Assembly (NCBI GenBank): GCA_051362555.1
Contig: CM120640.1
Span: forward strand, 57,762,788-57,826,787
Direction: 5' to 3'
Source of the DNA: Lingula anatina
Lineage: Eukaryota > Animalia > Brachiopoda
Length of the DNA stretch: 64,000 nt
In this document: one piece after another, positions 3,279-64,000 of the stretch
Layout of the letters: every line of letters begins with the position of its first letter
Position numbering within the stretch: position 1 is the stretch's first letter
Notes under the pieces: generated by a model
Told to the model about the DNA's origin: nothing
What the model saw: the letters and a program-made list of their open reading frames with translations, nothing else
Database searches by the model: none
Program-made: the position numbers and the translations under genes

Positions 3279-6199
3279 GTTTGAGAAAGGTCCGTGTTCA
3301 TCTTACGTTGAATGTTTTGTTTCCTTGGCAATATGGCGTATTCATTAACCCCGGATCGCAGTCTCAATTCCACAAATTGGTATTAATCATAGATGTCTCA
3401 CTCTAGGTTTCATGGTGTCGTGACATATTTGTTATATGACATTATCAACAAGCTGGAATTATAAGCAATAATACGTATGTATAATAACCTTTGATTATCA
3501 TTTCAAATTAGATTAATTACTAGTAAACGATCCTTCATTACTGAAACGCCCATTTATCCCACCAATTGTGTTTAATGTCCACTGCAATTACGACCTATTA
3601 ACTCCACCTGCAACTTCACTGGAAAGGTTAATGATAATTGACCCCAGGTTTTTGCTATATCACTAACGTCAGAGAATCCAGCATATGTTTCAAAAGCACA
3701 AGTAAAACATTTGCATATCAGTGTACTTACTGTGACCACCGCTGTTTGAAAAAGACTACACAACCAATAAGTATAAAAGTACGTTTGAGTCTACACGTTT
3801 TACATATCGAAATCAGCGAACTAATAGGCACGTCAAAGAACAGTTCCAAATTTTGGATAAAGCGAATTTTGAATTTAAGTATATTTTTGCCAGCGTGAAA
3901 TGTTCAGATTGAGCCTTACCTTGTCATGCAGAGGACTGAACGACTACACAGTCACGTAGGCTCCTAGTTCCACCCACTGTACCACCTGGCTTCATTGAAG
4001 TAAGCCTGGTGACAACCGGCCTGTCTAACAGATAGACGGCGACATGGACAGCTGGTGCACGGACAGCTTATGGTCGCAAGTTGTGAAAAGACTTACACAA
4101 TATGATCAGTCTCTTCGACAGAGCTAAACAATCCCAGACTATTCTGCCCTCAACACATGGAACATTCTGCTTCCTGGGATTCCTTTCCTTGTTATTTTTA
4201 CATTCCTTAAATATCTTAAATAAACGGGAAATTTTTATGGAAAGCGAAAGAGGTGCATAAATGAAGCGTCACTGGTCTCCCCAAATTAAAGAGGTGAACG
4301 ATTCTTGTACAAATTAATTACTTTATTGAAGTGAAAGATAAGAGCCAGCTGTACGAGCGCGTAACCGGCTGTAATGAAAGATCAAAGGATGGCAAAAGTA
4401 AATGAGTATTATGATAAACATCAAAGCTTTAATTAATAAGAACGTTCACAATATATTTTGTCTAAAAATATAAAGTTAGCTGGACAGTTTCATTTCTTTT
4501 TCTATTATCAAACGCCAACGAACATCATGCAAATGTATGGTTGCAATCTAATGAAAAACGTCGGTCCATATTTATGTCGTAAACCGAAATTGTACAAGAT
4601 ATAAACAATTTGCAATCAAGGCAAATTCAGGAAAATTTCAACAAAGACAATAAGTTAACATTAATTATGGCGCGTGAGAATTTTGGCGTCAATATTTCAG
4701 GAAGACGCTTCCAATCGAGCAATGACGAAGAGGTTCAAAACCGTCGTTAAAACTTTAGTGCATATATTCAGGGTATCGTCAAGCTGTTGAGCTATTAAAA
4801 AATAAACATATGACAAGTGTTCTGTTTTTATGTTACCATATGCAGATACAAAATGTCATCGACTTACTTGAATTTCAGAACCATGTCACGAGTTTGCATA
4901 CGAATTAGTCACTTTCAAATATTGTATACTTAAAATTAAGCTGCATTCATAAGATTTTAATAAAATCATGATCCTGAAATTCCCATCAGACATATTTAAG
5001 TGATTGGCATCCGTTTAAAAATTCCAAAGTCTATTTAATTATATATATCTTACCAGTCATTTAAAAGGTGGTAGAGGAATGACAGATATTTGAATAAATC
5101 AACAATTGGAATATATATCATATTTTTGGTCATGTACACATTATAAACTCATTCATTATTGCGCCAGATGGCGATTGCTGATGGCGCCTTAAACAGCTGA
5201 TCGTGACTTGTACTTGTCAAAACTATGTAAATAAAAGTGTCCTGATTTGTCCGCAAAAAAAGATAATTCTAGGCACATTTCTAATATCATAAATTGGGGG
5301 GGGGGGGGGGGCTTCCACCTTTATTTCAGCATTTTTTTCACAAAATAGATACTTATATTGATTATAACTATATTGAAATAGAGAACAACAATCATTGTTG
5401 AATACACGATATGACACTTTTAACTTTCATCAACAAGAAGCAACTAAAATGGTTTGTATTTACACTTATTTTACGTTTTCACACACTTGTGGAACTTTGG
5501 CATTAGGAAAGATTAGTATTCAATTAATGAACTCAGACTCTTTCCTTATTACAATACTGGTTCTTACTCACAATGCCACACTGAAAGGGCTAAGTCAATT
5601 CAAGTTGTTCAAATAAATACATACAGTGCAGATTTTAGTTTTGTATATGTCACACATTCAGTATGAGGGATAAATAATAAACCCATTAAATTACATGAAA
5701 GCACTTATTGCAACTCCAAAAGAATTCAGTTGTAACTGGTTTTCAGAGCAACCAGAGTCAATAAAATAGGGATGGATCCATGAATTTGACTGTTTATATT
5801 ATTCACTCTTAAATATGTAATACATACATATCTTATACATTGAATAGTTTGCATAAAATTAGGTTGAATTCATTAGTATCAAATCAAATAACAAGCACTC
5901 TCAGAAAAAAAATGCTAGCTTATTATATCCATGATGCTCAAATTAAAATTAAGTATTTGGAAATGTCCACATTATCTTTAAAATGGCAATGTTACACTTT
6001 GTAAAAAGCTCACTAAATGCAACAGATGGGTTCTTAAGGTCACCATAACAACCTTGTTTCAGAGAGTTTTTTTTATAAGCACACAAAATCATCAAAAGAA
6101 ATGGATTCTCCCAGAAAATCTTCAAATGTTTTCCTCAATATTATTCTATCACAATACATTACTATTTTCATTGAAAATATACTTCATGGAATATAAACT

Positions 6200-6352
6200 T
6201 CACATCTTTGACTTGAAATATCTTTTGAATTCCTGCCGGGCTATGGCTCTCATATGGACCTCATCTGGACCATCAGCTATCCTTAATATTCTTGCCCACA
6301 TGAACATGGCTGCCAATGGAACATCAGAGTTCACTCCAGCCCCACCAAAAGC
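6200..6352 (-). CDS. ACAD10: ACAD10 distal alternative last exon (ends ...KSKM*)
   Basis: ttctag acceptor, 153 nt: [50 protein letters not shown]. Confidence 0.9.
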
Positions 6353-9300
6353 CTAGAACAGAAAACTTAAATCCTGACAGAAAGTTGAGCACATCAAATG
6401 GACGCCAAGAGGACAGGAAGAGTAAGATGCAGCAGAGAGTTACAGCTTTGATTTCAATAACTTCCTGAGTTCCCCCCTGGCTATAGAGCGTAAATGAACT
6501 TCATCAGGACCATCTGCCAATCTGAGTGTTCTTGCTGCAGCAAACATGGCAGACAGTGGAATGTCGGAATTGACCCCAGCACCTCCATGAGCCTATGGTT
6601 ATAATGCAACAAATGACAAAATGCAAAATGTACAAAGTGTAAGTTGCACAAATAGAAAGTTAAAAAAAAATGTAGACCTTCACAAACTGAAGCAAATATC
6701 CAAACAATACATAGAAAAGTGAGTACCAGCACGAGATGGTGATTATATTAGTTATAACAATAAGTTAGCATTTCCAATATAGTAACTCTACCTTGTGACA
6801 GTGTTTGCCTTTCTTGTAATGTATTGTCTTATTTTCTGTATTATTATTATTAGTGTAAGTTAACATTTACAGAACACATTTTTAATAACTTAAAGTAGCA
6901 AAAATTGTTTTCACCTGAATTGCTCTATCAATCACATTAAGTGCCATGTTAGGAGCTGCCACTTTTATCATTGCTATCTCTGGAGCAGCAACCTAGAGGC
7001 AGAGACAAATATAAAATTCAACTTTCAAAGTTTATGTTGAAGCACAATCGGTATTAACTCTATCAGAATCACTTTTAGACAAAACAAAATGAAGAATATA
7101 TTAAGCAAGATCAAACTTTGCATAAAGCTACACTATACATAAAATGATAAAATAAAACTCACTTTCAAAAACAGTTTCAGAATTAAGACAAATTACTTTT
7201 AAACTGTTACTTTCAAAAGATGCAAGCAGACATTATACATACATGACAACTCTTACAGCACCAGATGCTAGTTTAACACAGTGATAATTCTCAAGCATGA
7301 AATAATGCCCTGGTCTCCATCTAATACCTTATTTCCTACAGTGTCCATCATATGGGCAGCTTTGAGCACCAACAGTCTGGTCTGTTCTATCTCTATTCTA
7401 GACTTGGCAATGTCAGCTCTGATGGTCCCTTGATCAGCAAGAGGCCTACCAAAGGCAACACGGTTCTGAACCTACACAGAAAAGTGAATATATAAAGATA
7501 CTATTATTTTAACATACGTCAAAACAAACCTGCCATTCCCTATCAGACGAGATCAAAGTTTTCACATTTTTCTTTCACTATAAAAACAATTTTCTTGACT
7601 ATTTAGTTTAATTCATTCTTACATCTCCATAGGGATATTGCATTTTCCTTGAAAATTTCTTTTTAAAAATTAATAAATACATAAAGCAGTGGATTTTTTA
7701 TAGTAAAACTATATTTCAATTGCTCTTACTCTATCTAACATAAGATCCAAAGCTCTCTCAGCAGATCCTATCAGTCTCATGCAGTGGTGGATTCTTCCTG
7801 GGCCAAGTCTACCCTGGGCAATCTCAAAGCCTCTCCCTTCACCCAGCAGTAGATTACAAGCTGGCACTCGAACATTCTCAAACAACACTTCTGCATGGCC
7901 ATCTGTGAAAACAAAATAATAAATTTCCTTTAGTTTAGGTTTAAAATCTTTAACAACAGAACAGGGGCAACCTCCATGTTTACAAACAAAAAATAAATAA
8001 AACTGCTTATGAACTGTTGGTGGTAAATTTAATTATGGAACTCAAATTTGCACTTCAGCTCAAATTGTTTAATTCTAAATTATCACAATATCCTTTAAGA
8101 GGCTCTGAAAGTTAAGAAACACAAAAACATACGTGGTGCATCCTGGGATCCGAACACATTAAGAGGCCTCAGTATTTTCACCCCTGGGGCATCCATTGGC
8201 ACCAGGATCATACTCTGCTGTCTGTGCATTGGTGCCTCAAGGTCTGTCTTACCCATAAATATGGCCAATTTACAACGGGGATCCATTGCACCTTAATCAA
8301 TATATGAATGAGAAAACCCAAAATCTATATAATGTAAGACAACTCACATCATTACCCAATCACTTACAAGTTACCACCAAACAAAAAAAAAAAAAAAAAA
8401 AAAACAAAACAAAAAAAAAATGCAATTTATCACAATAAATTTAATGTGTGAAAAGATATCCTATTTGAAAATGGAAAATTCTTTTATGAAACAATGAAGT
8501 TTTACTCTTACCTGATGTCCACCACTTGTGTCCATTGATCACATATGAATCTCCATCTCTTCTAATGGAGGATTCAATATTAGTTGCATCAGATGATGCA
8601 ACCTAAACCATGAGAAAAACATTTATATAACAAATTCTAATCATGTATCAACTGAAGCCAGATCATTTTAAAGGAATAATAACTGTTTGCTTTGGCCAAA
8701 AAATGAATTTTCCTGGAGTAAACAACAATTTTCCCATACTTACCAATGGTTAACGAATCTGTTTCTACATTCAAAGTTAGTCCCTGTTTTTTTTTTTTCT
8801 AAAAAGTTTGGTTTTATGTTATAATCTCTTAAGAGATTATTACAGAGTATATCCATCTATGGAGGTCACATTAAGTTAATTATGAAAATTAATCTACAAT
8901 GATCAAAACTACTATGATCTAAATATCTTGTACCTCCATATCAATCAGACCTTATATAATATTTTGACAATATGATACTAAAGTTAAGATCTTGTGTCAG
9001 TTTCAAGTACTTTGTACCACTTAAAAAAGTATCTGCACCTCATTTCTTACTTTGTGGCATTTGAAGTCTAATGAAGGACACAACGGCATGAAGAATCTTT
9101 GAGAAGAATCTAATCTATTTTTACTTTTGTAACACAAAAAAGACCTATCCACCAATCAACTTCAAATTTATCAATGAATATTATATAAGACTTCTTGCCA
9201 ACCAAACATTACCTGTGGTTCAGTCATGGCAAAGCAAGACCTAATTGTTCCCTCCAGCAATGGAGTCAACCATTTCTGCTTTTGTTCCTCTGTTCCGTAA

Positions 9301-12300
9301 CGTATTAAAACTTCCATATTACCAGTGTCAGGGGCACTGCAGTTGAATATCTGTGAGGTAAAGAATGTGATTGTGGAGACCAGTTTATTTGTAAGCAAGG
9401 GTAGCCTTATGTAAAAAGAGACTAAGATCATCTATTTTTTCCAAGAAGAAAAAAGAAGAAAAAAATTTAAAGACAAAAATAAATAAATATATAAAAGAAA
9501 TAAAATAACTCACAATTTTATGATCCTAACCATAAAAATCATCCAGATGATATTACGATAACTGTAAAGGTAGCGTAACATATCATTCACAACTAAGGGT
9601 ATAGGACACATATTATAATACCTCTGGGGCAAACACACACTTCCCCATCTCCTCACATATCATAGCATACTCCAGATTGGTCAGACCAGCCCCATAGTGA
9701 CAGTCTTGGTCAGATTCAATTGGAATGAACAAATTCCATAAACCTTCAGCCTTGGCTTTGGCCTGTTAAAAGAAAAAACAAGGCAGCAAAGCTGTCAAAT
9801 GTACAGACAAAAAACAGAAAATAAAGATGCAAAATAGGTCATTTTGTCAATTTTGATGCAATAATAAATAATGCTTATAATAACACAGTCAGTTAACACT
9901 GATTTTTAAACATGCACAACAGGTAACATGGTCAATAACAGGAGCAGATCAAGAGATATTTTCTGACAGTATTCCAAAGTATCTTTGTTGATCCATCCTC
10001 CACTTTTGATGGTCTTCCAACAGAAAAAATTGATACCAGGCAATGTAAACTTTAAAATCTGACCGTCATCTGACCCAGAAGACGGCCTCAATCCACCCCT
10101 GCAATAAGATTACAGTTTCTGGACTATGAGAGTTCAAATTCACATAATGAAAATCCCAATATTTGAAAAATGTTGACAGTGCATAAAATAATATTATATA
10201 ATGTTTAAAGACATAAAAACCTATGCAACTGCTTATGTGGAAATACAGAAAATCTGAAGAGCTTCAGGTGGATGGGAGTTGAAAATGCCAGTGTTTAGAA
10301 AAAAATTAAAAAGAAAACACAAATAAAAAAAAAATATTCCAATAAAGCTGCTATTCAAACTTTTAATCTTGCTGTATTAACATGATATGAATAATCCCAA
10401 TGTGTTTGAGGATAATAAGGCACTGTTATTCATCTATAGCATTAATGTTGGCATTGCACAAATTTTTTTTCTTTTGTAAACTTATTTGCAATATTAAACA
10501 ACATTTACCTGCATAATTATCACCAATTCCTAATTATGTGACACAGTTAAGAGAGCTTAACCTATAGGACTTGAATGGGAAATCTCAACGTGTGTTTTAT
10601 GTAATCTTATTTAATGGGCACTTGAAAATCAATTAGGCAAGTAATTTTATAGCTCTGAATTTGGCTAGTGATTATCCCAAGGGACAATTACCACCATCCA
10701 TAAACAGTAGCCCCATATAGCACTCCATAGAGCTGCATTGCTTCCAAAACAGAAAACAATCACACTGATTTCCAACACAAGCTACACTAGTCCTATGAAA
10801 CTTTTCAGTAAGTTAGAATATCATAAGTAAAATGGTTTTTCCTTAATGGTCATCCCAGCAGCGATGTCCAAAAAAGTTTTTTTTCATCTTTTATGCAATT
10901 TAACATAATGCTTAACAGCACAATGGCCATCAATTTTTAATAATAAAGAAAATGTATCATAGCTATTCAAAAGATGTGACTAGCAATGGTATTCAAGCCA
11001 ATGAAAGTTCAAAGACTAAGTCACACCTTGAAAATGTCCATATGTGAAAATTTTAATTGTAACAAAAAACTATATAATCTCCAAGAAAGTTAACAGATGT
11101 AACAGGTTTTCCAACTGAAGCTATAATTTAGTGCTATGCTACATTTCTATAAGTTTGAGAAGAGTAAGTGACTTGGTTTTCCTTTAATGGTCACTATGGA
11201 GGCATTGTCTAAAATGGGGTTGTCTTCAATTTTGATGCAATATTACATAATGCTTCACAGCATAATGACCATCAATTTTTAATAATAAAATAAAAGTATC
11301 ATGGATATTCAGAAAATTTGATATGGAAAGGTCTTCAGGGCCATGGAAGTTCAGAGTCACAACTTCAAAATCAGGCCTACCCAACTGCCAGACTCGGCAC
11401 CTAAGGATCCTGAATTAACCGGTATATATCGGACCACACTTCCCGTTTTCAAGGTGTGTGTCAGATCGCATTTCGGAGTATCAGCCAGAACACCGACAGG
11501 ATGAGCCCTGGCATGCTCGGCTGTCACCTTGATTGGATAGTAAACGATTGTCGTAAAATCGCTATATGATTTTAAAACCAGGTGCATGATTTTGAAAGCC
11601 ACCTAGATGAACCTTAGACTGCCACATTAATCTAATACAATGCAAAAAAAGCCCTATCAAAAGTGGTTAAAACATTCAAACCGAATGTTGTCAAGTCCCC
11701 ATATATCCCCATAGAGACAATAAAATAGAGTGCTCTAAAGTAAGAGTACAGTTTAAGGTTGTTCAGCCGAGCGTGGACGAGCCTGCAGTCGTGCTACAAA
11801 ATTTGTTCTGGGGTATGATACTCCGAAATGCGATCTGACACACACCTTGAAAACGGGTAGCGTGGTCTGATATACCGGTTAATTCAGGATCCTTAGGTGC
11901 CGAGTCTGGTAGTTGGGTAGGCCTGAAAATGCCAAAATGTACAAAAGAGATAACTGTACTGAAATGAATTTCTTTCCACTTTCAACACTTTTTTTACATA
12001 TATCAAAATAATCAATTTACTGTTGTTTTTAAATGATCAACTAAGAAAGTTGTTGACATAGGAAAAATATCAATAGAACAATTTCAAATGTCCAATTTGT
12101 TCCATTCTGAGATTCTGAACATGGTGAATGATTGAATCTGACAAACTGTAAAGATATGAGTTTATTTCCATTTTTGACACATTATTACAAAATGCACAAT
12201 AACAGGTTTACCATCATTTTTATATAATCAACTAACAATATTGTTAAGATGCAGAAAACGTCAAAAGAACACCTTTACATTACTAATTAGTTCACAAATG

Positions 12301-15300
12301 AGATTGTTAACATGCCTAAGAATTAAATCCGAGGAAAAAAGACTTATATACAAAAAAAGGCACAATTTCACCAAAACTGAACCGATCAAGCTTATTTTCG
12401 AACCTCATCTGTATTTTAGTAAATCTGATCACCCCTGTGAATTTCAAGACGATTGGCCAATTGATTTTCCTTGAAATGTGTTATCGGTGTTGCACATATG
12501 CTGAAATAGTGAAAAAACAGCATAACTTCCATAAAAAAGGCCCGATCAGACTGATTTTTGAACTTGACCTGCGTATTATGAATATTCATCATTTCTGTAA
12601 GTTTCAAGCCAAAAGGTAAAACTGTTTTTCACTTATCGTGTTATCGGTGTTGCATTTATGCTGAAAAAAATGAAAAAATTGCATAACTTCCACAAATATG
12701 GCCCGATCAAGCTGATTTTCGAACTTGACCTGCGTATTATGAATATTCATCAGTTTTGTAAGTTTCAAGCCAAAAAGTAAAATGGTTTTCCACTTATCGT
12801 GTTATCGGTGCTGCATATATGCTGAAAAAAGTGAAAAAACAGCATAACTTCCCTACAAGTGACCCGATCATGCTGATTTTCGAACTTGACCTGCGTATTA
12901 TAAATATTTATCAATTCTGTAAGTTTCAAGCTGAAATGAAAAACAGTTTTCCACTTATCGTGTTATCGGTAAAAGTGCACGGCGACGACGACAGACGCAG
13001 GTGATGGCTATATGTACAGACACATCTGTGTCTGTACATAAAAAAGTGACAGCATATACTGTTTAAAATTTTTCATGCCAGCATTACAAAGGGTCATGAT
13101 GTTTTGGTAATATATTTGGTATATTTGATGAAATAATTTATCATATTAAACATTTATAGCAAAGCAGAAAACAACTGAATTTAGAAAAAAATTCAATGGC
13201 TTATCATTTCTCACATTTTATCATCCTTATTGCCCATACCTTAAGTTCCTCTGTTTTAGGATGAATGGTCCACCTGTTATCAGCAAATGAATGCTGTGTA
13301 AACTCTCCTTCTAATGGCAAAATGTGCTCTTTAATAAACTGTTTCACTCTTTGATGGTAGTTTTGGGCCTTGAAAGACAGTGCAGACACTGTCACTGGCA
13401 TGGGTGCTGGAATAAAAACAAAATAGTAGGAAAATAATTATGTACTGGGAGAAATAAATAATTACAAAAGTTGACTCACACTGGCATGATCTAATATCAT
13501 CCAATCTACTCATAAGTTACTAACTAAGCTAAATTAATTTTTGGTCAAAACACATTTTGCCTGTTATACTTCTAAAATGAAAATTGAAAACACTGGTGAA
13601 AATTCTAAATGTAAGTGTGAATTCTGCACTATTCAACATCCATTAGTCTACAGTATTTTAATATATTGTGTAAAGTGTAACTCAACTTTGTGAAGATAAT
13701 ATTAATATTGCTAATTACATTTACCTATTTCTTTTCCAGGCATTGTTGATGTGGGCTGTGTTAAATAGTGCTGCCTCCCTCTACTTGTGTTATCAGTGCT
13801 TGCCGTGTTGTTACTATTTGATGCTATTCCCCAGCCTACATTAGCTGTCAATTCTGCTAGGGAACCAATGGCTTCTGCATCTGGAGCTGCTCCCTGTCCT
13901 GAAAAAAAAAAGCACATCCAAATGTGATGTTGGAGTCACTTCTTATTAAGTAAAGAAAAGCCAATCTTGCATCCTAAATCCTACATATATGTATGCCTGC
14001 CCAGATAAGGAGGGGGGGCTTTAAAATTTACTTGGCAAAAAAAGCTTTGGAGACCATATTTTGTGTTAATTTACCCCCTGTGGTATAAACAGTAACTGCT
14101 AACACACACAAATATATACACTAATGGAATTTCTTATAGGTTTATACATTATATGAGTGCATTTTATGGTATGCCACTTCTCAAGTGGCATCACCTGACA
14201 ACAACATTAAAGTAAATGAGACTTAAATAAGGAGAATCATATTGAAGCGAGTAAACATTTCAGAAGTCTTGAATATAGTTCCTTATAGATTCCAATCTTT
14301 TCAAATCATAAATAACAATGAGTGTAATAATTACCCACAACCTTTGTCCAAAGGTGTTTCTTAATTGTCAAATTATAGTGTCCTGAACATAAAAGTTTTA
14401 CACCTCTTAACCTTCGAAGGCTGTGCATGGCCAAAGTCCATCCAAGTTATTAACTAGTGCCAACAAATAATCAAGTCAGTGTTAGTCAATATTTGGGACT
14501 AAGATAAGCACAGATAAGCACCAATGGTAAGGTCAAACATTTTCTGTAGAGAACATATGCATTTCCTAATGAATAAATGTGCATATATTATAGGTGGAAG
14601 TAAACATGCCTTAGAAAATAATTTTGAGTTTTTTTCACCCCCAAACCAGATTATTTACTTCATTGAAAAACCATTTAAAGAGTTTTTTGGTTGTTTTTCC
14701 CTGTCACTTGACAATTCATCAAACACAATGCACTTAACACTGTACAATTACTGATCTGATAAGGCTGCCAGATCCAAAACTGAACAGATTTAGAACCCAG
14801 TGAGCAAACCAGAAGAGGAAAAAAACTGCCCATCAATATCAGGCTAAAGTGTAATTAACAACATGTTTCCCTCTGCATCACTAAAATCCTGCACTTGACT
14901 TACCATATTCATCTTTACCACATGTCAATAACTGTTTACACTATGACATACACAGTATCTTAGTCAAATCCCAATAATTTAAAATTTTTACATCATAAAC
15001 ATTTAGAATACTTTCCATACAGGTGCAACTACCTGAAATTGCTCTCTTATATACTCCTTGTAAAATAGCAGCCCCTCTGAAGCACTGAAATGCCACATAA
15101 AAGTTCCAGTTGGCAATGGGTGGGATGTTCAAGTTCCTGCAATATGTATCTAAATATTCCTGTTCTGAGGGAAGCCCTAGTTGCTGGATATTTTTGTTGG
15201 CAAACCCTAAAAATAAACAAAGATGAAGGCATAACTGAATGGTTAATATCGAATTAACTATAAATAAGACATTAAGGTTAATAATGTGAACAATGAAATC

Positions 15301-16661
15301 AACTAAGATAAAACCTATTATCATCAAAAACACTTGCAATTTACTGAATATATTCTATTCAGTAATCATAATCATCATCAAAATTCCTGGCAGAAAAGTA
15401 CTCAAAACTGCATGTAATTTTATTCCTTTGTCATTCTTGAAGGTTCTTTATCTATGAAAAATACCTCACACTTGTAGCATGTAGACTAGAAAGCTATGCA
15501 ATTACAGCATTACTGTGAAAAACATACTGGTAAAGGAGAGTAATGTAGGTAAATACACCTGGTCTTTTAAAATAGGGATTTCATACAAACCTGTAAGTGG
15601 TCCTGGGATCTCTGGCATGTGATATGCCAAACAGTTGGTAGCCAGGTCAGTCAGAGGATCTCCTAAAGTGGACAGTTCCCAGTCTAACACAGCCACCACC
15701 TCAGGTCTAGTAGGGTGGTAGATCAGGTTGTCTAATCTTCAATAGATGAAATATATTTTGCTTTGTAATTATTTTACAGGCAAAGATAAAATAAAAAAGT
15801 CTTAATGGTTTCAAATTCTCAATTTGAAAATATTACATATTTTGATTCAGAATTTACTTGTACTATCAGCTTCTTCGAATGACAGCAAAAAAGGTAGTAT
15901 TTGATTACTTCCTAAACCAAAACCATAAGCAATCATGTATCAATTTTTTTCAAGTATCTCATAGAAAAAAACGTGTAGTAAAAATAAAGGGTATCTCTGC
16001 AGTTATAATACTTTTAAAACGACAATCTAGCATAATGTCATATTTACCTAAAATCCCCATGAACTACAGTGCACCTCTCATGAGCAGGGAGATGATCCTG
16101 AAGCCATTTTGACAACTTGTCCATTACAGGCATGTCCTTTGTCTTGCTGGCTTCATACTGTCTGATCCACCTTGTAAGATTTCTCTGAACATAATTGCCT
16201 AAAACAGTGATCAACAGTTTAATTTATATGCATGAACATCGGGTGTAAGAAAAAAAACTCTTTTTGAAGACACAGGTAATCAAATGCAGAGAAACTGCAA
16301 TCCTTTCAAGTGTTGTCACTGTTTTTCAACATAACAACTGCATTTGACAATTGTCATTTGACAAAATATTTCAAAATTAACTTTTACCATGTTTTCCATA
16401 ATCCTCCAAATTAGCCTTAGCTATATCCACAGCATGTATCTTACAAAGGGTTTCATTCATTGCAGCATAGATTTGCTTCCTCTCCTCAAAATGCATTTCT
16501 GGGAGGAGAGGATTCTTGAATATTCTTCCTGGGACATGCTCCATTATGTAGAAGGGTGTTCCCAATAAACTAAAATTAGATTGCCAAATCTAAGATGCAA
16601 CTATGTCTGATATCTACACATACTAGTACAAAATAGGCTGGTAGTTTTGTCAACCCTTAAC

Positions 16662-16692
<31 letters not shown>

Positions 16693-19600
16693 CCGCTCTC
16701 TCTGTCAAATATTTAAAATCTTTTCCACAAAGTAATCGTTTATGTTCTTCAGTATAATGACAAATTTGGAAACATTTTGAAAACAAGTGCCATTATGTAT
16801 ATTCAACAAAAGAAAGAACAAAAAAGGTGTTTTTATACATATTAAAATATGTCTTAATGATTGTACATTTATTAATAATAGCTAATGCATGCTTACCTGT
16901 CTTCCTCACAGAGTGCTAACATTTTAGGAACAGGTACTCCCTGGGTGCCCACTGCTTTCATGACTCGGTACTCTCTTTCCACAGCATGAGCGGAGGGCAA
17001 AAGTTTCCCTGGCTGGAAAAATTCAGAATTTGGTGAAAAACAACATTCTTTATTTCAATATGCATCTCAACCTCTATCCCTTTTCTATCTCAACAGATTT
17101 ACTACTTTATAGTATGTAATGTGGCCACCTACAAATTAAACAGATAACTTATTACAATATTAAAAATCACTGTGATTAGCACAATAAAACAAACAGCATG
17201 TGTAAGATAGATATTTATAAATCTAATATTATGACAAGCAAAGCTGAACTTAGTTATGACAAACAACCATTACATGTACCAGAGCTGTTGCCAGATATAT
17301 TGCGGCAATGCTAAGCATAACATAAATACAGTACATGGCTTATAAGGATATATAAGACTTCTTTTCTTTACTTACTGGTTTCTTTCTTAAAACCAAATTT
17401 TTTCCACCATAAGAAATGAAGTAAGTAGGATTTGACTGACCGTGGGCAAAACATCTGACAGCAGGTGGATCTGAAACAGCAACATTCATGGTTTGACTAA
17501 TATATACTATAAAGAAGAATACATTTCTGATATCAATATTGCTGTATATATAACAAACTATGCCATTTATATTGCTGTAGGCTAATGTTTTATCAAGAAA
17601 CCACTGGCCCACTTCTCCCAGGTCAGTGACCATTCCAGACAGGCAAGTAAAATCTGAACTTAACTTGTCCAAATGACTAGCATCTGACTGTAAAATAAAT
17701 GATTCTGAGCCAAGCTAATATCCTTAGAGATCTATTAACATGCTTGTCCAGTGCAAAAGAAAACATTTTGTAACACTATATATGCTATCTTCATAGCATA
17801 TCTCTCACATTAACACTGTACTGAACCTACAGCATTATTAAACACATACTAAACTTGCCTTTTGAGTGAATCTTTAATACCCAGTTCATGTATCTTGTAA
17901 GTTTCATAACAGGTAACTGTAGATTTTCTGGAACAGCTATTGTGCCAGGGTAAAAACCTCTTACACCAAACCCAACTTCTGACTCCAACTTCCTTATTGA
18001 CTGATCAACCTCACCTACATCAACCTAGAAGAATGGCACAGAGCCTTTTACCAGGATTGAAAAGAGATACAGACATTTCCTCTGTTGCTGTCCCTCATTG
18101 GGGCTTTTTTGTTTCATCACTCCCATATCAAGTAATAATCAATTTTGCACTAGAGCAATCCTCAAAACCCTGTTCCCATTTTTATAGGAAACCACAAAAA
18201 ATGTATTTCCAATATAGCAGATGCATCTGACAAAGGAAATGGCAATCTATCCCTTTCCACTCACATGGCAACAATCACATTTTGAACATTTATTTCACAT
18301 AGTACTTGCCTTGGGAATGAAGATCCAAAGCCTCATTGAGGTATTTTGTTAATTTGTCAATTGGAAGCTCCAGCCTCTTTGGTACTAAAGTTGTTCCGGG
18401 ATAAAAACCCCTCAATGAAAAACCCAGGTAAGTCTCCAATTGTTTCAAACTCTGTAAAGGCTCAGTCTGTGAGACCTCCAAAACAAATCAAAGAACAATG
18501 TCAAGCAACAGCCTGTATATATCACCACAAACACTACGGGTATATTGCTTGCTTTGCATGCTATGCACCAGTTGTTTAGCCATTAATAATTACATGAATT
18601 GCAATGTATTTAAGGCATTGTCAACAAAATTTATCATTTTCATCAAAATTTAGAAAGATACCATTTAGAAATCACGCACTGAAACTGAAGCACACTGTGG
18701 ATGCAAAAAATAAAGCATATATATATATATCAGACAATTTTATTGAATTTCATAAATTACAATGTTAAAGGATATTATTACTAAACAAATCAATAATCAC
18801 TATGAAATAACTATGAACTCATAAACAGTTAAAGCTAACATAAAAACTGATGATTGCTAATATAATTTACTTATAAACATCAGCTGAATAATCCACACTT
18901 TACACCTTACCCTTATTTAGTAAATTTTTGAGAATGTCAAAAAATAATTTAAACAATAAATTAAATCAAAAGAAGATTCCATTAGAAAATTCCTTTTCAC
19001 AGTAAAACATAAAGATCACCTTTATTGTCCTCATTCCCATTTCTTTTGCTGGTTTCAGGTTCCTTCCAATGTCATCAAGAAATATCACTTCCTCTGGATG
19101 AACATTCAGGGCTTCTAGGCACATCTGGTATATCTTAGGGTTTGGTTTCTTGATTTTCACGATACATGATTCCAATATCTAAAACATTTAAAAAATGATG
19201 TATCCTTTACTCGATAACAGTGTTATAACTGTTCAGTCATGCATTATGTTCTTATCAAAATTATTTGAATTTTTAATGTTTCTTGGAAAACATAAGCCAT
19301 TCAATTACAAAGATAAATTAGCCATTTAACCAAAAGTCTCATTCCTTAAAATATTTTTTAAAGCTACGCACTACATCAAAAAGTTTTCTGTCCAAAGGCA
19401 TTGCAGACTGTGTAGGAGTAATAAGCCAGTTGTTGGTGATAAGGGCTGTCTTAATCCCTTCTGCTCGAATACACTGTATGGCATCAAGCATCTCTGGATA
19501 TGGTCTCGCAGTCATATCTGTCAGTCCATAAAATAAGGTGGAAGCATCAATCTTTTTCCCAACCTATGTTCATAAAAGAAAAAATATTGAGGAGAATACA

Positions 19601-21071
19601 TGAACAGTAGATATGTGGATACACAGAGATCTTTTTCAGAGTCTCTGCAGAGAGCTTAAATGTGTAAACAACAAATACATTTACAGTCTAAGTAAATGAA
19701 CATTTTATTGAAATGGAGCAATGGAGATACTTTACAGTGTATATGAACTAAATATTGTAACATAGATGCTGCATTACAATTATTTAGATGCTGAGAGATA
19801 TTATGTGGACAGTGGCAATATATGCTTTACTCGTCTTTAGGGGTGCTGGTAATAGCAGTACCTTCTCTCTTCATGCATATCAAATATAATACACTGACCC
19901 CCTCTCATGCTACGTATATGCCTTTAACACCTTGAGCATTAGGAAGAGATGTTCTTGCATATATCGCTTGGGTAACTAACATGGCATTTATGGGTGACAG
20001 TGTATTATCTAACACATAATCCCAAACTGACTTCAATATGTTTTGAAAAATAAAAAAGTTTGCAGAAATATTGCAGCAATATTGTTGCAAACTGAAAGAT
20101 TGCAGCAACTAGTTTGGAGGATGTTGCAAAAAATAATTTACTGTTGGTAACTTGCAGCCATATTGCAGCAAAAAATTGCTGCAGATTTGCAAGAAAAAAT
20201 TGCAGTTTGCAGAAATATTGCAGCAGGCCTGACATTTTGCTATGGAAAATCTCACACTTACGTGACAACTTCACTTATTCATTAAAAACAAACAAAACAA
20301 CAGTTGATAAATGGAGAAACCCAAGTAAATCCTATACCTTGTCAGATAAACCTCTGTTGAACTCCTCAACATACTCCTTGAATGTCATCTCTCCTCGATC
20401 CAGTTTGGCCCAGCCACCTTGTTCTCCAAGACTAACTATGAACTCATTAACACTGTTTTTAGGAAGGTTGAGTGCAGCTTCAAAATCTAAAGAAAAATTT
20501 GACATTGCATGCTTATGATGTGTAACATGTAATTAAATTATGTTAAAAAAAAAAACTAAACAAATAAATCAAATCAAAAGCAGGCTGGAAAAAAAGCCAT
20601 ATGAAATACATTTTATCTTTCCTTGACACCTTTTAAACTTTTTGGAAAGAAAAAATTAGTTTTCCATAGAATTATAATTAAACTTAATTTTGTCATGTAG
20701 CATAAAAGCCTGTTGCTTGACAATGTTATTTGGTTTTGGGGTCTCACAGACTGAACCCTTACAGAGTTTGAAACAACATTTACATGTAAAATCTGGATAC
20801 TAATACATAAAATTACATTACATTATATAACGTACTGGATATTAAAAATAGGTAAATGGTATATACACCAGTACAAACCATTGAAAGCCTGGAATGGAGA
20901 TGGTAAAAGCACCCCTCCCATATCAAATATGACTGCTTTGGTAGGTGTAGTAGTAGAGCCATATCTCCTGGATCCTCTACCCTCACTGCACACTGATGTC
21001 GCTACAGCAGGGGAATGCTTCAATACATGACCAGAAAGGCTCTTCAATCTCATCTGGGCCAAACGCATCAT
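6200..21071 (-). CDS. ACAD10: Acyl-CoA dehydrogenase family member 10 (HAD + APH-like kinase + ACAD domains)
   Basis: Coding exons (approx.): 21071-20879, 20486-20338, 19563-19372, 19178-19020, 18475-18310 (6a) or 18024-17859 (6b), 17470-17376, 17012-16897, ~16569-16389, ~16198-16048, 15736-~15591, ~15207-15033, ~13898-13724, ~13407-13240, ~9762-9622, ~9349-9213, ~8602-8512, ~8291-8133, ~7902-7730, ~7471-7328, ~6992-6915, then 6592-6440 or 6352-6200. Motifs: [21 protein letters not shown] and FLDD; kinase GQSNPTY and [12 protein letters not shown]; [24 protein letters not shown] and ADGPDEVH. Confidence 0.95.
6440..6592 (-). CDS. ACAD10: ACAD10 proximal alternative last exon (ends ...KSKL*, canonical PTS1)
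   Basis: catag acceptor, 153 nt, phase 0, open: [50 protein letters not shown]; 34/50 aa identical to the distal exon. Confidence 0.88.
9777..13045 (+). mobile_element. Helentron-associated (HINE/pearl-like) element with internal tandem repeats
   Basis: 5' end ACAAGGCAGCAAAGCTGTCAAATGTACAGAC; ~370-bp degenerate units then ~160-bp units (CCGATCA.GCTGATTTTCGAACTTGACCTG); GACG-type microsatellite; 3' hairpin TATGTACAGACACA-tc-TGTGTCTGTACATA followed by an A-run; no TSD seen. Confidence 0.75.
11372..11925. mobile_element. MITE with ~120-bp TIRs and 5-bp TSD, nested in the HINE-like element
   Basis: CAGGCCTACCCAACT... / ...AGTTGGGTAGGCCTG; AAAAT on both sides (11367-11371, 11926-11930). Confidence 0.9.
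16668..16703. repeat. (CT)n microsatellite
   Basis: Direct reading. Confidence 0.9.
17859..18024 (-). CDS. ACAD10: ACAD10 mutually exclusive exon 6b
   Basis: ttctag acceptor, 166 nt, GC donor (AAG|GCAAGT): [55 protein letters not shown]; same length and phase as 6a, 28/55 aa identical. Confidence 0.88.
18310..18475 (-). CDS. ACAD10: ACAD10 mutually exclusive exon 6a
   Basis: Rare GAG acceptor, 166 nt, GC donor (AAG|GCAAGT): [55 protein letters not shown]. Confidence 0.88.
20710..20776 (-). promoter_or_regulatory. Intronic element complementary to the exon 6a branch point/acceptor/5' end (candidate long-range RNA pairing)
   Basis: Inverted copy of 18440-18511; the 36 exonic nt give 34 Watson-Crick + 2 G-U pairs on the transcribed strand. 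The regulatory role is inferred. Confidence 0.7.
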
Positions 21072-36089: not shown

Positions 36090-37651
36090 ATGATAAGGTT
36101 TATTTGGGTTCAAAGCTGAGGGACTGTGAAAGTATTCTATTCACACTTATTTGAATGAAGTCGAAAAAAAAAAAAAAGATGTGTTGGCATTCATTAGGTG
36201 TGTGTGAAAGTTATCTTCCAGAGTTTCTCAATGGAAAGTAAAAGAGATACACGTGAAAAAATGTTATTTTGACTAGCAATTTGTAATAAATATCTGATTG
36301 AAATTGAATAAAGCAACCTTTTTGATTTTGGAACTGAGACGGCAGTTCTGTTGTTACTGACACCGACATCTCTCGCTGATAACTTTTAATTGTAACTGTT
36401 AAAAGGAAAGATCCCGGAAAAAATGAAAAAATTTACACCAAGAGAAACAAGAAGTTTTACGGCTGCAAACAGAAAAACTGAAAGAGACAGCTTAAAAGAC
36501 AAACTAAGATCAATCAGTGGGGATGTTGGTGCGTCAGTAGAAGAAACTGTTAATATAAGTCCACAGCTGCCATGGGCAACAGCAACTTCAATGACAGAAA
36601 CTTTGCCTTAGCCAACCTACACAAGTATGCTGCAGTCGACCAAACATTCCTTACCGCAAGCCAGCAGTCAAGAGCCCACAGTTCCCATGAGTGATCAGGC
36701 TACCGCCATGAATCCAAACGGACAACAAATGCCTATGAATCCTAACACTAAGCAATCACCAGGGCCTTCCCGTAGTCAGGACACCACCACATTGTCCAGT
36801 GAGCTTCAAACTCCAGTGAGTGCAAGAAATCCAGAACTAACAAAGACACAAGGTCCCCAAGTTCCAGATTTTTTTTACAAGAACTCCACTACCTACATCT
36901 AGAGCAACAGACAGGAATCACGTTTCTTTTCCAGTGACTTCTATAAGCCAACAAACAAGCCAACAAACTAGTGGAGAGCAAGTAAACACTTCTGTTATTA
37001 TTACTGTACCACAACATATAAGTCCACTTCCTTTCCTAGGAGAAGATAATGAAAATGGAAAAGACTGGCTGGATAATGACATTCAATATTGTAACTTATT
37101 GCAATATTCAAATGAACAAAAAGTAGCTCTTTTTCAATTTTTCATGTCCGGTAAGGCCAAGCAATGGTTTCTATCTTTAGAGGCCAATGTAAAAAATAGT
37201 TTTGATTCTATAGTAACACAATTCAAACAGAGATATGGTGAAAATAGTCTATCTACCAGAGCCAAAATGGTTCATTTATTTTCTTTAAAGCAAGGTAGTG
37301 AAAATGTACAAGACTATATAGCAACAATGATAAATCTAGGGAAAGATACAAATCTTCCTGAGGAACATCTCAAAATGGCCATCATAAATGGTCTAGATAT
37401 TGGAATTAGAACAACAGTGGTGCAGCAAAATCCAAGATCAATCAATGATTTGATAAAATATTCAGTTTTAGCAGAAAGTGCTGTCAAGGAAAATAACTCA
37501 GCTACCGTAAGTGCACTTGAGCACAGCAATGAGAGCAACGTGTTCGGAACAAACAGGTAGACGTGGCGCTTAAGTTGCAGAACGAGCGTGCTGCATGATT
37601 TTGAGTCCAGACCGCATGTTGATGTTTGCGATTACTGTACGAGCGCTAATG
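36090..37651 (+). mobile_element. Degenerate Ty3/Gypsy element: LTR-like leader, gag, start of integrase tail
   Basis: ORF 36934-37560 has capsid-like PFLGE..KDWL, GKAKQWF, FKQRY, LKQGSENVQDY, INGL; upstream frames broken by stops; AATAAA at ~36307. Confidence 0.75.
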
Positions 37652-40600
37652 CAGTGATGCATCCAGGGAGCGGCATCAGGGCATTGCCCCCTTTTCCTAA
37701 TGAATGCCCCCAATTTTAGGAAACAGTGCGCAAAAAATGCCCCAGATTTGAACTAATGAGCGCATTTTCAGCAAATAATTTGCGCTCAAAAGTTTCTAGA
37801 GCAATCTCCGTATCGCCAATCTAAGGGGAAATGCTCCTGCAGCGAGAGGGATTTCCAGGTAATGGTTTTTCCAATACGTCATCAATAGCTATTTATAGCA
37901 CTTATCTGATTTAATTGCTTGGTTAATTATTACTTAATCATGGTCATCACAGCGACCTCTGTATCACGTGTTAAAAAACAATGGCTGCCAAAAAAAAAAA
38001 CGATTCTCGATTTCTTCTCAAAGAAAACCATCTATAAGCCGAGTCTGTCGAGTCGGAAGAACCGATGGACTTGGAAAAGGACACTTCGCCCGATTCCTGA
38101 GACTGTCTCGCTGAACGAAGGATCGGAGAATGTGGAAACTGCACAGGAACCACGGAAAGAAAAACCATAAGAGGAAAGCAGGTCAAAGCCTGCGGTGGAT
38201 CGGGAAAACAGCAAAAATATTTCGTTCGTGAGTTCGTGAAAAACCAATCGTCCATGGGTGGTATTAAATGAGAAAAATTAAATGTTGTGCAAATACTGTG
38301 TTGAAACTGGAAAATCCAATTCATTTACGCAAGGAAATACAAACTACAGAACCTCTACATTGGATCGGCATTGCGAATTGCCGGGCCACAAACAGGCCAT
38401 CCAGGACTTGCGCCAGCACGATAATATGAACACTTTGTGTAATAAAAATTTGGACAAAAAATCTGAAGTGCTTATAAAAGCTTTTAAAGCTGTGTATTTC
38501 ATGGCCAAAGAAGGCATCGCCTCTTCAAAATATGGGGCTTTTATGGATTTTATGGAATCGGTGGGTGTTGACATTGGAGCATTTAACATTGGTGAAAATG
38601 CAACTTATTCATCTCGGACTACTGCTGAAGAAATACAGGTAAAATTGTACATGTTCTGCATTATAAGCAATTTTATGTTCTGTCATAGATATAGATCTAT
38701 ATCATAATATTATTTTCTACATGTGTAATTTAGTCTATAAATAATATAGATCTAGTTTATAAAATTTAAAGGGTAACTTTAGCTTATAAATGGAGAGCAA
38801 TTTGTTCCCAAAGTGATTTTGAAGGATGACTGTTCTATTTTAGGAGGGAAGCCTACTTAATTGGATGGGATGTGTTTTGATAAAGAGAGCAGAGTAACAG
38901 ATAGAGGGAGATTTTTTGAAAATTTTGAAATTCAACCCTTTTTATTTCTTATTGAAACCCTATCAAGTGACCACTTAAAATAATCGTCTCATTTAATCGA
39001 GTTTTGATAAGAAATAAAGAAGTTTGGGGCATAAACGTTCAGTTTCACTCCTATCTGTTGCTCAGAGAGAAGCTGCTCCAGTGTGGCTTGTCTTGTGACC
39101 TAGTTTTCCGTTGAAGAATCCATTGCAACTCATGTGTTATCGTTGGTCTTAATGTTTTAATACAATTTTCAAGTCTTTATCAGCGTGTTTCTTATTCTGT
39201 TGCTGAGACGTTTACACTTTACTGGCGTGGTGGCAGCAGTGGCGAAGCAAAAGACCCACAAACCAACAATGAGGGTGTTACATGGCAAAAAAAAAAATCA
39301 AGAGCCTCTCCTCTCCGTGGCTTCCAAGATGATGACGCAGAGGTTCCAAACAGCCGCACAGCACAACAAAAAGTTACTCAACTAGAACTGATGCTTGGGC
39401 AAAAAGCAAACTTTTGCCCCATTATATCTAGAAACACGATAGTGAAAAATTCAACATCTTTACCTAATATTTGGCAGGCTATTCGTCTCCATTATGGTTT
39501 TCAGTCATCGGGTGCACACTTCCTTGATCTCGCAAGCATCAAATTAGAGCATAATGAAAAACCAGAAGACTTATATCAGCAATTACTTGCCTTCATTGAT
39601 GATAGCCTATTGCAGGCAGGCGGCGAAATTTCATATCACGGTGAAAAACCTACTGAAGATGAGGCAACTTCACTCAAGGTTTAGCCATGTATTCGACCCA
39701 CACTATAAGGGATACAATGGAACATCAAGTCCCTTTAAGGCCATTGTAAACATGGGAACCGAACTGCCACCACAACGAAAAGGGCAGATTCCCCAATATG
39801 CTAGGGATAAGTTGGATGAACTACAGAGTAAATTTGATGACCTTGAAGCTCTCGACGTCTTTGCCAGACCGGAGGACGTTGGTGTCGTGGTGGAATATCT
39901 GAACCCTTCCTTTCTTGTGAGAAAACCCAATGGCGGCTTCAGATTAGTTACAGCATTCGCTGAGGTAGGGCGATATTGCAAACCACAACCTTCCGTTTTG
40001 CCAGATGTCAATTCAACACTGTAAACCATAGCGCGCTGGAAGTTCATCGTTGTGTCAGACCTAACTAGTGCATTTTACCAAATTCCCCTCTCAAAGGAGT
40101 CCATGAAGTACTGTGGTGTTGCGACTCCTTTCCGTGGTGTTAGAGTATATACCCGATGTGCCACGGGGATGCCTGGATCAGAAACAGCATTGGAAGAGCT
40201 CATGTGGAGTGTGTTGGGTGAGCTAATCCAGGAGGGCATAGTCACTAAATTAGCTGATGATCTTTATTGCGGTGGCGACACACCTGCACAATTGTACAAC
40301 AACTGGAAGCGTGTCTTGGAGGCCCTTAGCTCTAATGGCCTAAATCTTGCAGCTGCAAAAACCATTGTTGCTCCGAGACAAACTGTTGTCTTAGGATGGG
40401 TTTGGTCCAGTGGAAGTACACATGCAAGTCCTCACCGCATTTCTGCATTATCAAATTGCCCCCCGCCTGAGACAGTCAGTGGAATGAGATCATTTATTGG
40501 CGCATTCATAGTCTTAGCCAGAGTAATACCCAATATGCTGCTCAAATACTCGATCCACTAGAGCAATCCACTGTAGGTCTCCAGTCCAAGGACAAGATTA

Positions 40601-63423: not shown

Positions 63424-64000
63424 CTAAAAGGAAAATATTGTATACGGTAATATGCCAAACAATTCGACCAAGATTAATTAATTAATTTCATGGAAATGTC
63501 AGTTTGGTCGAATTGATTAAAATACAGCAAATGGAAACCTTTGATATCGTCGGATTGTTAGGGGCATCTGCCAAAACGTCCATCTTTCCAGAAGTATTGC
63601 ATTTTACCGGAAGTGTTACGCAAGATAAGCCGCAATTTTCGCCTAACACGTGTTTCAGGCATTTTTTATCCTCCTTCTGAAATCTTATTTTGCTGTGTAC
63701 AATATGTACTAACATTACTTAACATTACAAAAGACGACAATTATAATTTCTAATTATATATTTCCCTCACATACGATCATTTCCATGATGCGCTTCACGT
63801 ACAAGTGGGACGAGTATTTCCCCGGAGACAGGTGTTGTAAACAAAGGCCAGTCACTTATATTTGAAACCGGTAGCTTTAGTGGACTTAAACTAGTTATTT
63901 GAATTTTAATATGACAACTGAAATCAACCGAATTGAATTTTTTTACCAGTCTGAGATCAGTTGTTTTCAACCCGGCTTGCTCAGCGTCGAGGCGTAGACG

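What the first reader, a model, noticed from the sequence alone, without database searches (positions are those of the whole stretch)
6200..6592. Duplicated alternative last exons: SKL vs SKM and different residues around the catalytic loop
Two tandem 153-nt phase-0 exons, both open and both with ADGPDEVH, are 34/50 aa identical with many synonymous changes, which implies both are under selection. Proximal: [17 protein letters not shown] (canonical PTS1). Distal: [17 protein letters not shown] (weaker PTS1). From memory of the families, the distal exon looks more ACAD10-like and the proximal more ACAD11-like. Only 87 nt with no AATAAA separate them, so choice is probably acceptor competition with a shared polyA site. 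The AA vs MW swap may resize the acyl pocket (inference).
Basis: partly seen in the sequence, partly recalled or inferred. Interest (0 to 1): 0.8.

Follow-up and report, generated by a model that had tools for sequence, protein, structure and literature searches.

The report
Twin last exons diversify lophotrochozoan ACAD10
A lamp-shell lipid-metabolism gene (ACAD10) splices to either of two copies of its last exon, one with and one without a tryptophan near the catalytic residue; the same either/or appears in gene models of a ribbon worm, snails and bivalves, and likely lets one gene supply the two enzyme versions that vertebrates get from ACAD10 and ACAD11.

Summary
Confirmed. Two tandem 153-nt last exons (6592-6440, SKL; 6352-6200, SKM) of an ACAD10 gene; 34/50 aa identical, pN/pS 0.31. 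RNA reads join the 6915 donor to both: 18 proximal and 10 distal in four runs; four other runs list only the proximal joint. One 3' UTR is shared. Both isoforms are already automatic gene models (X1/X2). New: 13 of 26 lophotrochozoan ACAD10 clusters looked up hold alternative last exons, and in 12 one exon keeps Trp at catalytic Asp-8 while the other lacks it and mostly has Thr at Asp-5. That mirrors ACAD10 (Trp 57/59) versus ACAD11 (Trp 1/119; Thr/Ser/Cys 111/119). Both classes end in PTS1-like tripeptides, so SKL versus SKM is not the conserved point. The non-Trp exon is an ACAD10 copy, not ACAD11-derived (p-AU 0.028). One origin versus several is unresolved, leaning several. Catalytic effect and ACAD11 loss in these animals are untested. 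A new member of a known kind (tandem duplicated exon substitution), with natural chimeras for asking whether ACAD10 and ACAD11 differ chemically. Earlier scan notes cover only bacterial homologs.

The parts
6440..6592 (-). Proximal last exon (coding part, aa 997-1046, ends SKL-stop); non-Trp class: Ala at Asp-8 (6538-6536), Thr at Asp-5 (6529-6527), catalytic Asp 6514-6512; major isoform
   Evidence: joint 6915->6592 in 7 of 8 runs, 36 reads; identical to the C-terminus of P0115
6200..6352 (-). Distal last exon (aa 997-1046, ends SKM-stop); Trp class: Trp1015 (6298-6296), Ile at Asp-5 (6289-6287), catalytic Asp 6274-6272; minor isoform; also part of the 3' UTR of the proximal isoform
   Evidence: joint 6915->6352, 10 reads in 4 of 4 runs, not listed in the 4 runs; identical to the C-terminus of P0216
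6353..6439 (-). 87-nt spacer: 3' UTR of the proximal isoform and holder of the distal acceptor (AG at 6354-6353); no AATAAA
   Evidence: Read depth similar to the flanking exons
6915..6992 (-). Penultimate exon with the single GT donor (6914) that both acceptors compete for
5300..6199 (-). Shared 3' UTR; AATAAA at 5325-5320; read depth ends in the 5281-5361 bin (end approximate)
18310..18475 (-). Second duplicated pair, internal exon A (aa 232-287, HAD-kinase junction), 166 nt, GC donor
   Evidence: models P0115/P0216; no reads laid here
17859..18024 (-). Second duplicated pair, internal exon B, 166 nt, GC donor; including both A and B would shift the frame
   Evidence: model P0219; no reads laid here
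5300..21071 (-). Whole ACAD10 gene: HAD + APH kinase + acyl-CoA dehydrogenase-fold domain, 1046 aa
   Evidence: Pfam on exons; 1043 of 1046 residues of P0115 and P0216 read exactly from the window; tree

Best explanation
The ACAD10 gene splices one donor (6915) to either of two duplicated last exons, giving two 1046-aa proteins that differ in 16 C-terminal residues, and the swap likely tunes the dehydrogenase-fold active site so that one gene supplies an ACAD10-type (Trp at Asp-8) and an ACAD11-type (no Trp, Thr at Asp-5) enzyme. Shown: both junctions, shared 3' UTR, purifying selection, invariant catalytic loop, recurrence of the Trp/non-Trp pair in gene models of three phyla, match to the ACAD10/ACAD11 signature. 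Inferred: choice by acceptor competition without a polyA switch; a catalytic difference (flavin environment or substrate range in 4-phosphoacyl-CoA elimination); both isoforms peroxisome-competent; ACAD11 missing in these animals; several independent duplications rather than one.
For: Junction reads to both exons, with 57-61 nt on the short side in three runs and no read fitting two places. pN/pS 0.31. In the diverged-lineage run X8 the distal exon has 3 substitutions in 153 nt against 9 in the next 106 nt of UTR (Fisher p 0.017; p 0.064 with the spacer added) and no listed indel. Asp-8 is the only column that differs in all 12 within-species pairs; Asp-5 is Ile/Val in 12 of 12 Trp exons and Thr/Ser/Cys in 11 of 14 non-Trp exons. 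Non-lophotrochozoan ACAD10: Trp 57 of 59, Thr at Asp-5 0 of 59; ACAD11: Trp 1 of 119, Thr/Ser/Cys 111 of 119. Haliotis, unionids and Babylonia each have sister gene copies, one Trp and one non-Trp, each pair starred in the body tree. Both sites sit on the predicted helix 1007-1022 just before catalytic Asp1023 and align with MCAD D368 and I371. No named lophotrochozoan among the 120 best ACAD11 hits; the 16 unnamed ones are closest to coral, echinoderm or vertebrate proteins. C. elegans lacks ACAD11 and its ACAD10 is peroxisomal (bioRxiv 10.1101/2025.09.10.675409, passages).
Against: No biochemical or structural-contact evidence. Recombinant mammalian ACAD10 and ACAD11 had comparable activity on 4-hydroxyacyl-CoAs (PMC11342911 abstract), so the signature may not matter catalytically. 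None of the substrate contacts named for ACAD11 (R626, R631, H634, R637, D753; PMC12440821 section 7) differs between the isoforms. Exceptions: the C. angulata X1 model and one Logan oyster protein have Ser for Trp; a second short Aplysia locus has no Trp in either exon; Holothuria has only a non-Trp form listed. 13 of 26 lophotrochozoan clusters show no alternative exon (Ostrea unclear), and I chose clusters that had many members or isoform names. The non-Trp residue is heterogeneous (A, G, K, T, S, H), which also fits relaxation. Exons were classed by Trp, so that column's separation is partly circular, and the pairs are not independent. The distal joint was not listed in 4 of 8 runs. ACAD11 absence rests on the top 120 of 2811 hits.
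Confidence: 0.58

Rival explanations
1. Redundant copies: both exons are kept functional, but the Trp loss in one copy is relaxed constraint, and the isoforms are catalytically equivalent; the duplication persists for dosage or splicing reasons.
For: Non-Trp residue is heterogeneous; mammalian paralogs are similar in vitro; many lineages list one exon only; C-terminal exon duplications are common (77 of 236 human events, PMC9741552 passages).
Against: Trp is kept in 57 of 59 outgroup ACAD10s yet lost in one copy in 12 of 13 pairs, with a coupled move to Thr at Asp-5 that no outgroup ACAD10 shows; gene duplicates in three lineages split the same way; synonymous sites near saturation (dS about 1.9) show long joint retention.
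Confidence: 0.22
2. The swap mainly changes targeting: SKL gives strong peroxisomal import, SKM leaves more protein for mitochondria through the N-terminal presequence.
For: The tripeptides differ in this species; the N-terminal 40 residues are disordered in the model and Arg-rich; mammalian ACAD10 and ACAD11 differ by compartment (PMC11342911, PMC12440821).
Against: No consistent direction across the 12 pairs: AKL/SKL, AKL/AKI, SKL/AKL, AKI/ANL and others; Met-ending signals are the commonest among ACAD11s; both tails are Lys/Arg-rich upstream.
Confidence: 0.1
3. The swap alters subunit contacts in the tetramer (or permits mixed tetramers) more than the active site.
For: ACAD11 is a tetramer (PMC12440821 section 7); the exon covers the last two helices; C-terminal helices and the glycine loop of ACADs contribute to subunit and FAD contacts (recalled).
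Against: The consistent changes are confined to two residues 5 and 8 before the catalytic Asp; the last helix varies by lineage, not by class.
Confidence: 0.07
4. The non-Trp exon is a captured piece of an ACAD11 gene.
For: It carries the ACAD11 residues at Asp-8 and Asp-5.
Against: With those two columns removed, ACAD11 exons form their own group (80/88, not starred) and all non-Trp exons sit with ACAD10; forcing them with ACAD11 is rejected, p-AU 0.028 (41 columns only).
Confidence: 0.03

Closest known systems
Mammalian ACAD10 (PMC12440821, PMC11342911; bioRxiv 10.1101/2025.09.10.675409)
   Same: HAD + APH kinase + ACAD architecture, HCMR motif, catalytic Asp in [12 protein letters not shown]10 clade; Trp at Asp-8 in the distal isoform.
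   Different: Ends in a PTS1-like tripeptide (most outgroup ACAD10s listed do not) and has two alternative last exons; none seen in the 4 deuterostome clusters looked up.
Mammalian ACAD11 (PDB 8V3U, 8V3V, 2WBI)
   Same: PTS1-like end; no Trp at Asp-8 and Thr at Asp-5 in the proximal isoform (mouse I745, T748 by alignment).
   Different: ACAD11 has no HAD domain and is a separate clade (100/100); the proximal exon is not ACAD11-derived.
Tandem duplicated exon substitution events, e.g. ACOX1 exon 3a/3b, KHK, PKM (PMC9741552, PMC3791418 passages)
   Same: Homologous exons swapped in a metabolic enzyme, ligand-binding core conserved, few changes beside it; ACOX1 is a related peroxisomal flavoenzyme whose isoforms are reported to differ in substrate specificity.
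   Different: Here a terminal exon chosen by alternative acceptors with one UTR; it carries the catalytic residue and the targeting signal; the variable site tracks the difference between two known paralogs.
C. elegans ACAD10 (acds-10)
   Same: Protostome ACAD10 with a PTS1 (SRL), peroxisomal, in an animal without ACAD11.
   Different: No alternative last exon mentioned in the passages read; lacks the mitochondrial presequence.

Membership tests
ACAD10 | N-terminal HAD domain | tested here: met
   PF13419/PF00702 on exon 19178-18969
ACAD10 | APH-type kinase domain with catalytic Asp | tested here: met
   PF01636; HGDF aligns with ACAD11 D220
ACAD10 | ACAD domain with HCMR motif and catalytic Asp | tested here: met
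   Alignment to 8V3V/8V3U; Asp invariant in both exons
ACAD10 | Falls in the ACAD10 clade, apart from ACAD11 | tested here: met
   Tree of the ACAD domain without the last exon, 44 proteins, split 100/100
ACAD10 | N-terminal mitochondrial presequence | tested here: inconclusive
   Residues 1-40 low-confidence and Arg-rich; no targeting predictor run
ACAD10 | 4-hydroxyacyl-CoA kinase / phospho-elimination or alkylglycerol kinase activity | not testable with these tools
   Needs enzyme assays
ACAD11 (proximal isoform) | No HAD domain | tested here: not met
   Both full-length models carry HAD
ACAD11 (proximal isoform) | ACAD11 clade | tested here: not met
ACAD11 (proximal isoform) | PTS1-like end; no Trp at Asp-8, Thr/Ser at Asp-5 (signature derived here) | tested here: met
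Tandem duplicated exon substitution event | Adjacent homologous exons | tested here: met
   34/50 aa
Tandem duplicated exon substitution event | Each spliced from the same donor; exclusive at protein level | tested here: met
   Both joints in RNA; the proximal exon ends in a stop
Tandem duplicated exon substitution event | Both copies under purifying selection | tested here: met
   pN/pS 0.31; cross-lineage substitutions
Tandem duplicated exon substitution event | Tissue- or stage-regulated use | tested here: inconclusive
   Distal:proximal joints 2:7, 3:5, 4:2, 1:4; distal unlisted; too few reads, tissues not known

The most novel reading that the evidence does not exclude
Lophotrochozoans lost ACAD11 and re-evolved an ACAD11-type enzyme several times over (brachiopod, nemertean, molluscs) by duplicating the 50-codon last exon of ACAD10 and changing the same two residues beside the catalytic Asp; where the whole gene later duplicated, each copy kept one type. 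A lost paralog would be rebuilt by convergent exon duplication, and Trp at Asp-8 would be the chemical switch between ACAD10 and ACAD11.
Probability: 0.3. Interest if true: 0.72.

Novelty: new member of a known kind. Interest (0 to 1): 0.52.

Why it matters
The functions of ACAD10 and ACAD11 were assigned only in 2024-2025, and whether they differ in chemistry or only in compartment is open (PMC11342911 abstract; bioRxiv 10.1101/2025.09.10.675409 discussion). These isoforms are natural chimeras: same body, both with a PTS1-like end, 16 residues apart, with the recurring difference at the two sites that separate the paralogs. They point to one residue (Trp1015 here; I745 in mouse ACAD11) as a cheap test. 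If the duplications are independent, this is a clean case of convergent exon duplication replacing a lost gene.

Tried and rejected
No whole genome is held for this window, so ACAD11 absence in this species and exon order in other genomes could not be searched directly. No RNA holder was listed by the index; nine same-label raw-read runs were offered and eight laid. Mis-mapping between the exons rejected: 67% nt identity, reads laid at 85% or more, none fits two places. Unspliced pre-mRNA as the source of spacer reads rejected: intron bins 6658-6900 are empty. Stop-codon read-through across the in-frame spacer considered and dropped: it would bury the PTS1 and meets a TAG at the acceptor. Origin test inconclusive: one clade for all 15 non-Trp exons is not rejected (p-AU 0.128, two long annelid rows left out); the Lingula pair is a clade only in the 49-row tree, unstarred (67/89), and open in the 51-row tree. 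Atlas look-ups named ACAD10/11 clusters but gave no usable taxa. The structure model gave secondary structure only (monomer, pLDDT under 50 at 1000-1005). In one search exon 7471-7328 was read one base out of frame; corrected (four changes, all synonymous). Model X5 (P0217, 824 aa) is not taken as an HAD-less promoter isoform: it joins both internal exons and starts in the off-frame of exon A.

Full report
Observation. On the minus strand, 6592-6440 and 6352-6200 are two 153-nt, phase-0, open exons behind AG acceptors, ending SKL-stop and SKM-stop, 87 nt apart. Both hit PF00441. They share 34 of 50 residues and 101 of 150 nt; Nei-Gojobori pS 0.69, pN 0.21, pN/pS 0.31, bootstrap 0.18-0.49.

Gene. 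Upstream exons encode HAD, APH kinase and ACAD domains. The window reads 1043 of 1046 residues of two database models that the source names Lingula anatina ACAD10 isoform X1 (P0115, proximal exon) and X2 (P0216, distal exon). So both isoforms already exist as automatic annotation. A tree of the ACAD domain without the last exon (44 proteins, 351 columns) puts the gene with ACAD10, split from ACAD11 at 100/100.

Splicing. Eight of nine offered RNA runs were laid. In X2, X3, X6, X8 the donor at 6915 joins the distal exon in 2, 3, 4, 1 reads and the proximal in 7, 5, 2, 4; 10 of 28 is 36% (95% interval 19-56%), an upper view because 19 further short-overhang reads all point to the proximal exon. 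In X1, X4, X7, X5 the proximal joint has 11, 4, 3, 0 reads and the distal joint is not listed, that is below 3 reads from 2 starts. The spacer and distal exon are covered as UTR, the intron is empty, depth ends near 5300, and the only canonical AATAAA from 6600 to 5200 is at 5325. This is alternative acceptor use in a terminal exon with one UTR; competition as the control mechanism is inference. Runs X7 and X8 come from a diverged lineage under the same label; in X8 the distal exon has 3 substitutions (one synonymous, two making Phe to Asn at codon 46) against 9 in the following 106 nt of UTR (p 0.017; 0.064 with the spacer).

Recurrence. I looked up 30 ACAD10 clusters, chosen for many members or isoform names: 26 lophotrochozoan (one unnamed, assumed so), 4 deuterostome. 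Thirteen of the 26 hold models with the same body and different last exons: Lingula, Lineus, Physella (three exons), Biomphalaria, Aplysia, two Crassostrea/Magallana clusters, Saccostrea, Mytilus, Ruditapes (three), Dreissena, Mizuhopecten, Ylistrum; 0 of 4 deuterostome clusters do. In 12 of the 13, one exon has Trp eight residues before the catalytic Asp and the others do not; C. angulata has Ser and Lys. A second short Aplysia locus also lacks Trp in both. Patella, Littorina, Watersipora, Tubulanus, Owenia and cephalopod clusters list only the Trp form, Argopecten only the non-Trp form; Ostrea has a separate short non-Trp model. These are gene models; I saw no reads for other species. Asp-8 is the only column differing in 12 of 12 pairs (partly circular, since I classed by it); Asp-5 is Ile/Val in 12 of 12 Trp exons and Thr/Ser/Cys in 11 of 14 others (Fisher p 5e-5, pairs not independent). 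Haliotis, unionids and Babylonia have sister gene copies of opposite class, with one annotated exon seen per copy.

Match to the paralogs. Among 59 named non-lophotrochozoan ACAD10s, 57 have Trp at Asp-8 and none has Thr at Asp-5. Among 119 of the 120 ACAD11-search hits with the motif, 1 has Trp and 111 have Thr/Ser/Cys at Asp-5. It is not descent: with both columns removed the ACAD11 exons group apart (80/88) and forcing non-Trp exons with them is rejected at p-AU 0.028 (41 columns, so weak).

One origin or several. Families keep both exons orthologous (Physella/Biomphalaria, oysters, Ruditapes/Dreissena, scallops: 5-7 class-grouping sites, 0 species-grouping). Across phyla the sites lean the other way: Lingula against 11 others gives 17 species-grouping, 6 class-grouping and 3 crossed sites (comparisons overlap). 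Fused ab initio models in Biomphalaria, Magallana and Mytilus place the Trp exon first, the reverse of this window. Both favour separate duplications or homogenisation, but one clade for all non-Trp exons is not rejected (p-AU 0.128).

Targeting. 34 of 40 named lophotrochozoan ACAD10 representatives match a loose PTS1 pattern of my own, and both classes do so without a consistent direction; two non-Trp tails (HKL, NKL) are non-canonical. ACAD11s often end in Met. SKL versus SKM looks species-specific.

ACAD11 in these animals. A placozoan ACAD11 query returned placozoan, cnidarian, echinoderm, amphioxus, vertebrate and Capsaspora proteins, and no named lophotrochozoan in the 120 listed of 2811; the 16 unnamed hits are nearest to coral, echinoderm or vertebrate proteins. 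The listing stops at about 860 BLAST bits while Lingula ACAD10 itself scores 821, so a diverged ortholog could be hidden. C. elegans lacks ACAD11 and its ACAD10 ends SRL and is peroxisomal. Loss is suggested, not shown.

Structure. The model puts Trp1015 and Ile1018 on helix 1007-1022, before Asp1023. They align with pig MCAD D368 and I371 and mouse ACAD11 I745 and T748. That I371 packs against the flavin is recalled, not checked (one search found no paper). The ACAD11 substrate contacts named by Rashan et al. lie in shared exons or are invariant. An effect on flavin surroundings or cavity is therefore inference.

Literature seen. PMC12440821: passages, sections 7 and 10. PMC11342911: abstract, outline, first part of the discussion. 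bioRxiv 10.1101/2025.09.10.675409: abstract, sections 6 and 12, passages; its supplements are closed and its Figure S2 on distribution may bear on ACAD11 loss. PMC2761260: passages, section 13. PMC9741552 and PMC3791418: passages. No supplements were opened. Searches listed no paper on ACAD10 alternative last exons in invertebrates (listings only, top 25, 2, 20 and 1); the library omits most subscription papers. Earlier scan notes: three bacterial split-gene ACAD10/11 findings by sequence, none by words; none bore on this reading.

Verdict. Real and expressed; a new member of a known class of splice event. The interest lies in the recurrence and in the residue it singles out. Interest 0.52; best explanation 0.58; most novel reading 0.3 likely, 0.72 if true.

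Noticed in passing
window 18475-18310 and 18024-17859 (-): A second duplicated exon pair in the same gene, at the HAD-kinase junction; 166 nt each, both with GC donors, frame-enforced exclusion. Lineus models differ at the same place (aa 232-281); within-species similarity exceeds cross-species similarity. No reads laid.
   Followed up: partly
P0099 vs P0276 (Ruditapes models): A third swapped segment, aa 465-509 in the kinase domain (22 differences), suggesting another duplicated exon in this gene family.
   Followed up: no
window about 48950-48550, 32900-31790, 29190-28420 (-): Three similar EXPERA (PF05241, TMEM97/EBP-like) last exons and at least two copies of the preceding exon, likely tandem gene copies upstream of ACAD10.
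   Followed up: partly
runs X7, X8 on window 5200-7600: Runs under the same species label differ by about 8% in the 3' UTR with many indels: a diverged lineage or cryptic species.
   Followed up: partly
P0145, P0158, P0174 (cephalopod ACAD10): Cephalopod ACAD10s list only the Trp exon and end without a PTS1-like tripeptide (KYK, RRR, KHR), unlike other molluscs.
   Followed up: no
window 2113-1850 (-); 53660-56890 (+); 59700-63800 (-); 36800-41800 (+): Myosin head exon (Pfam); exons resembling importin-alpha and Tudor-domain proteins, and transposon remnants (recalled resemblance, not tested).
   Followed up: no
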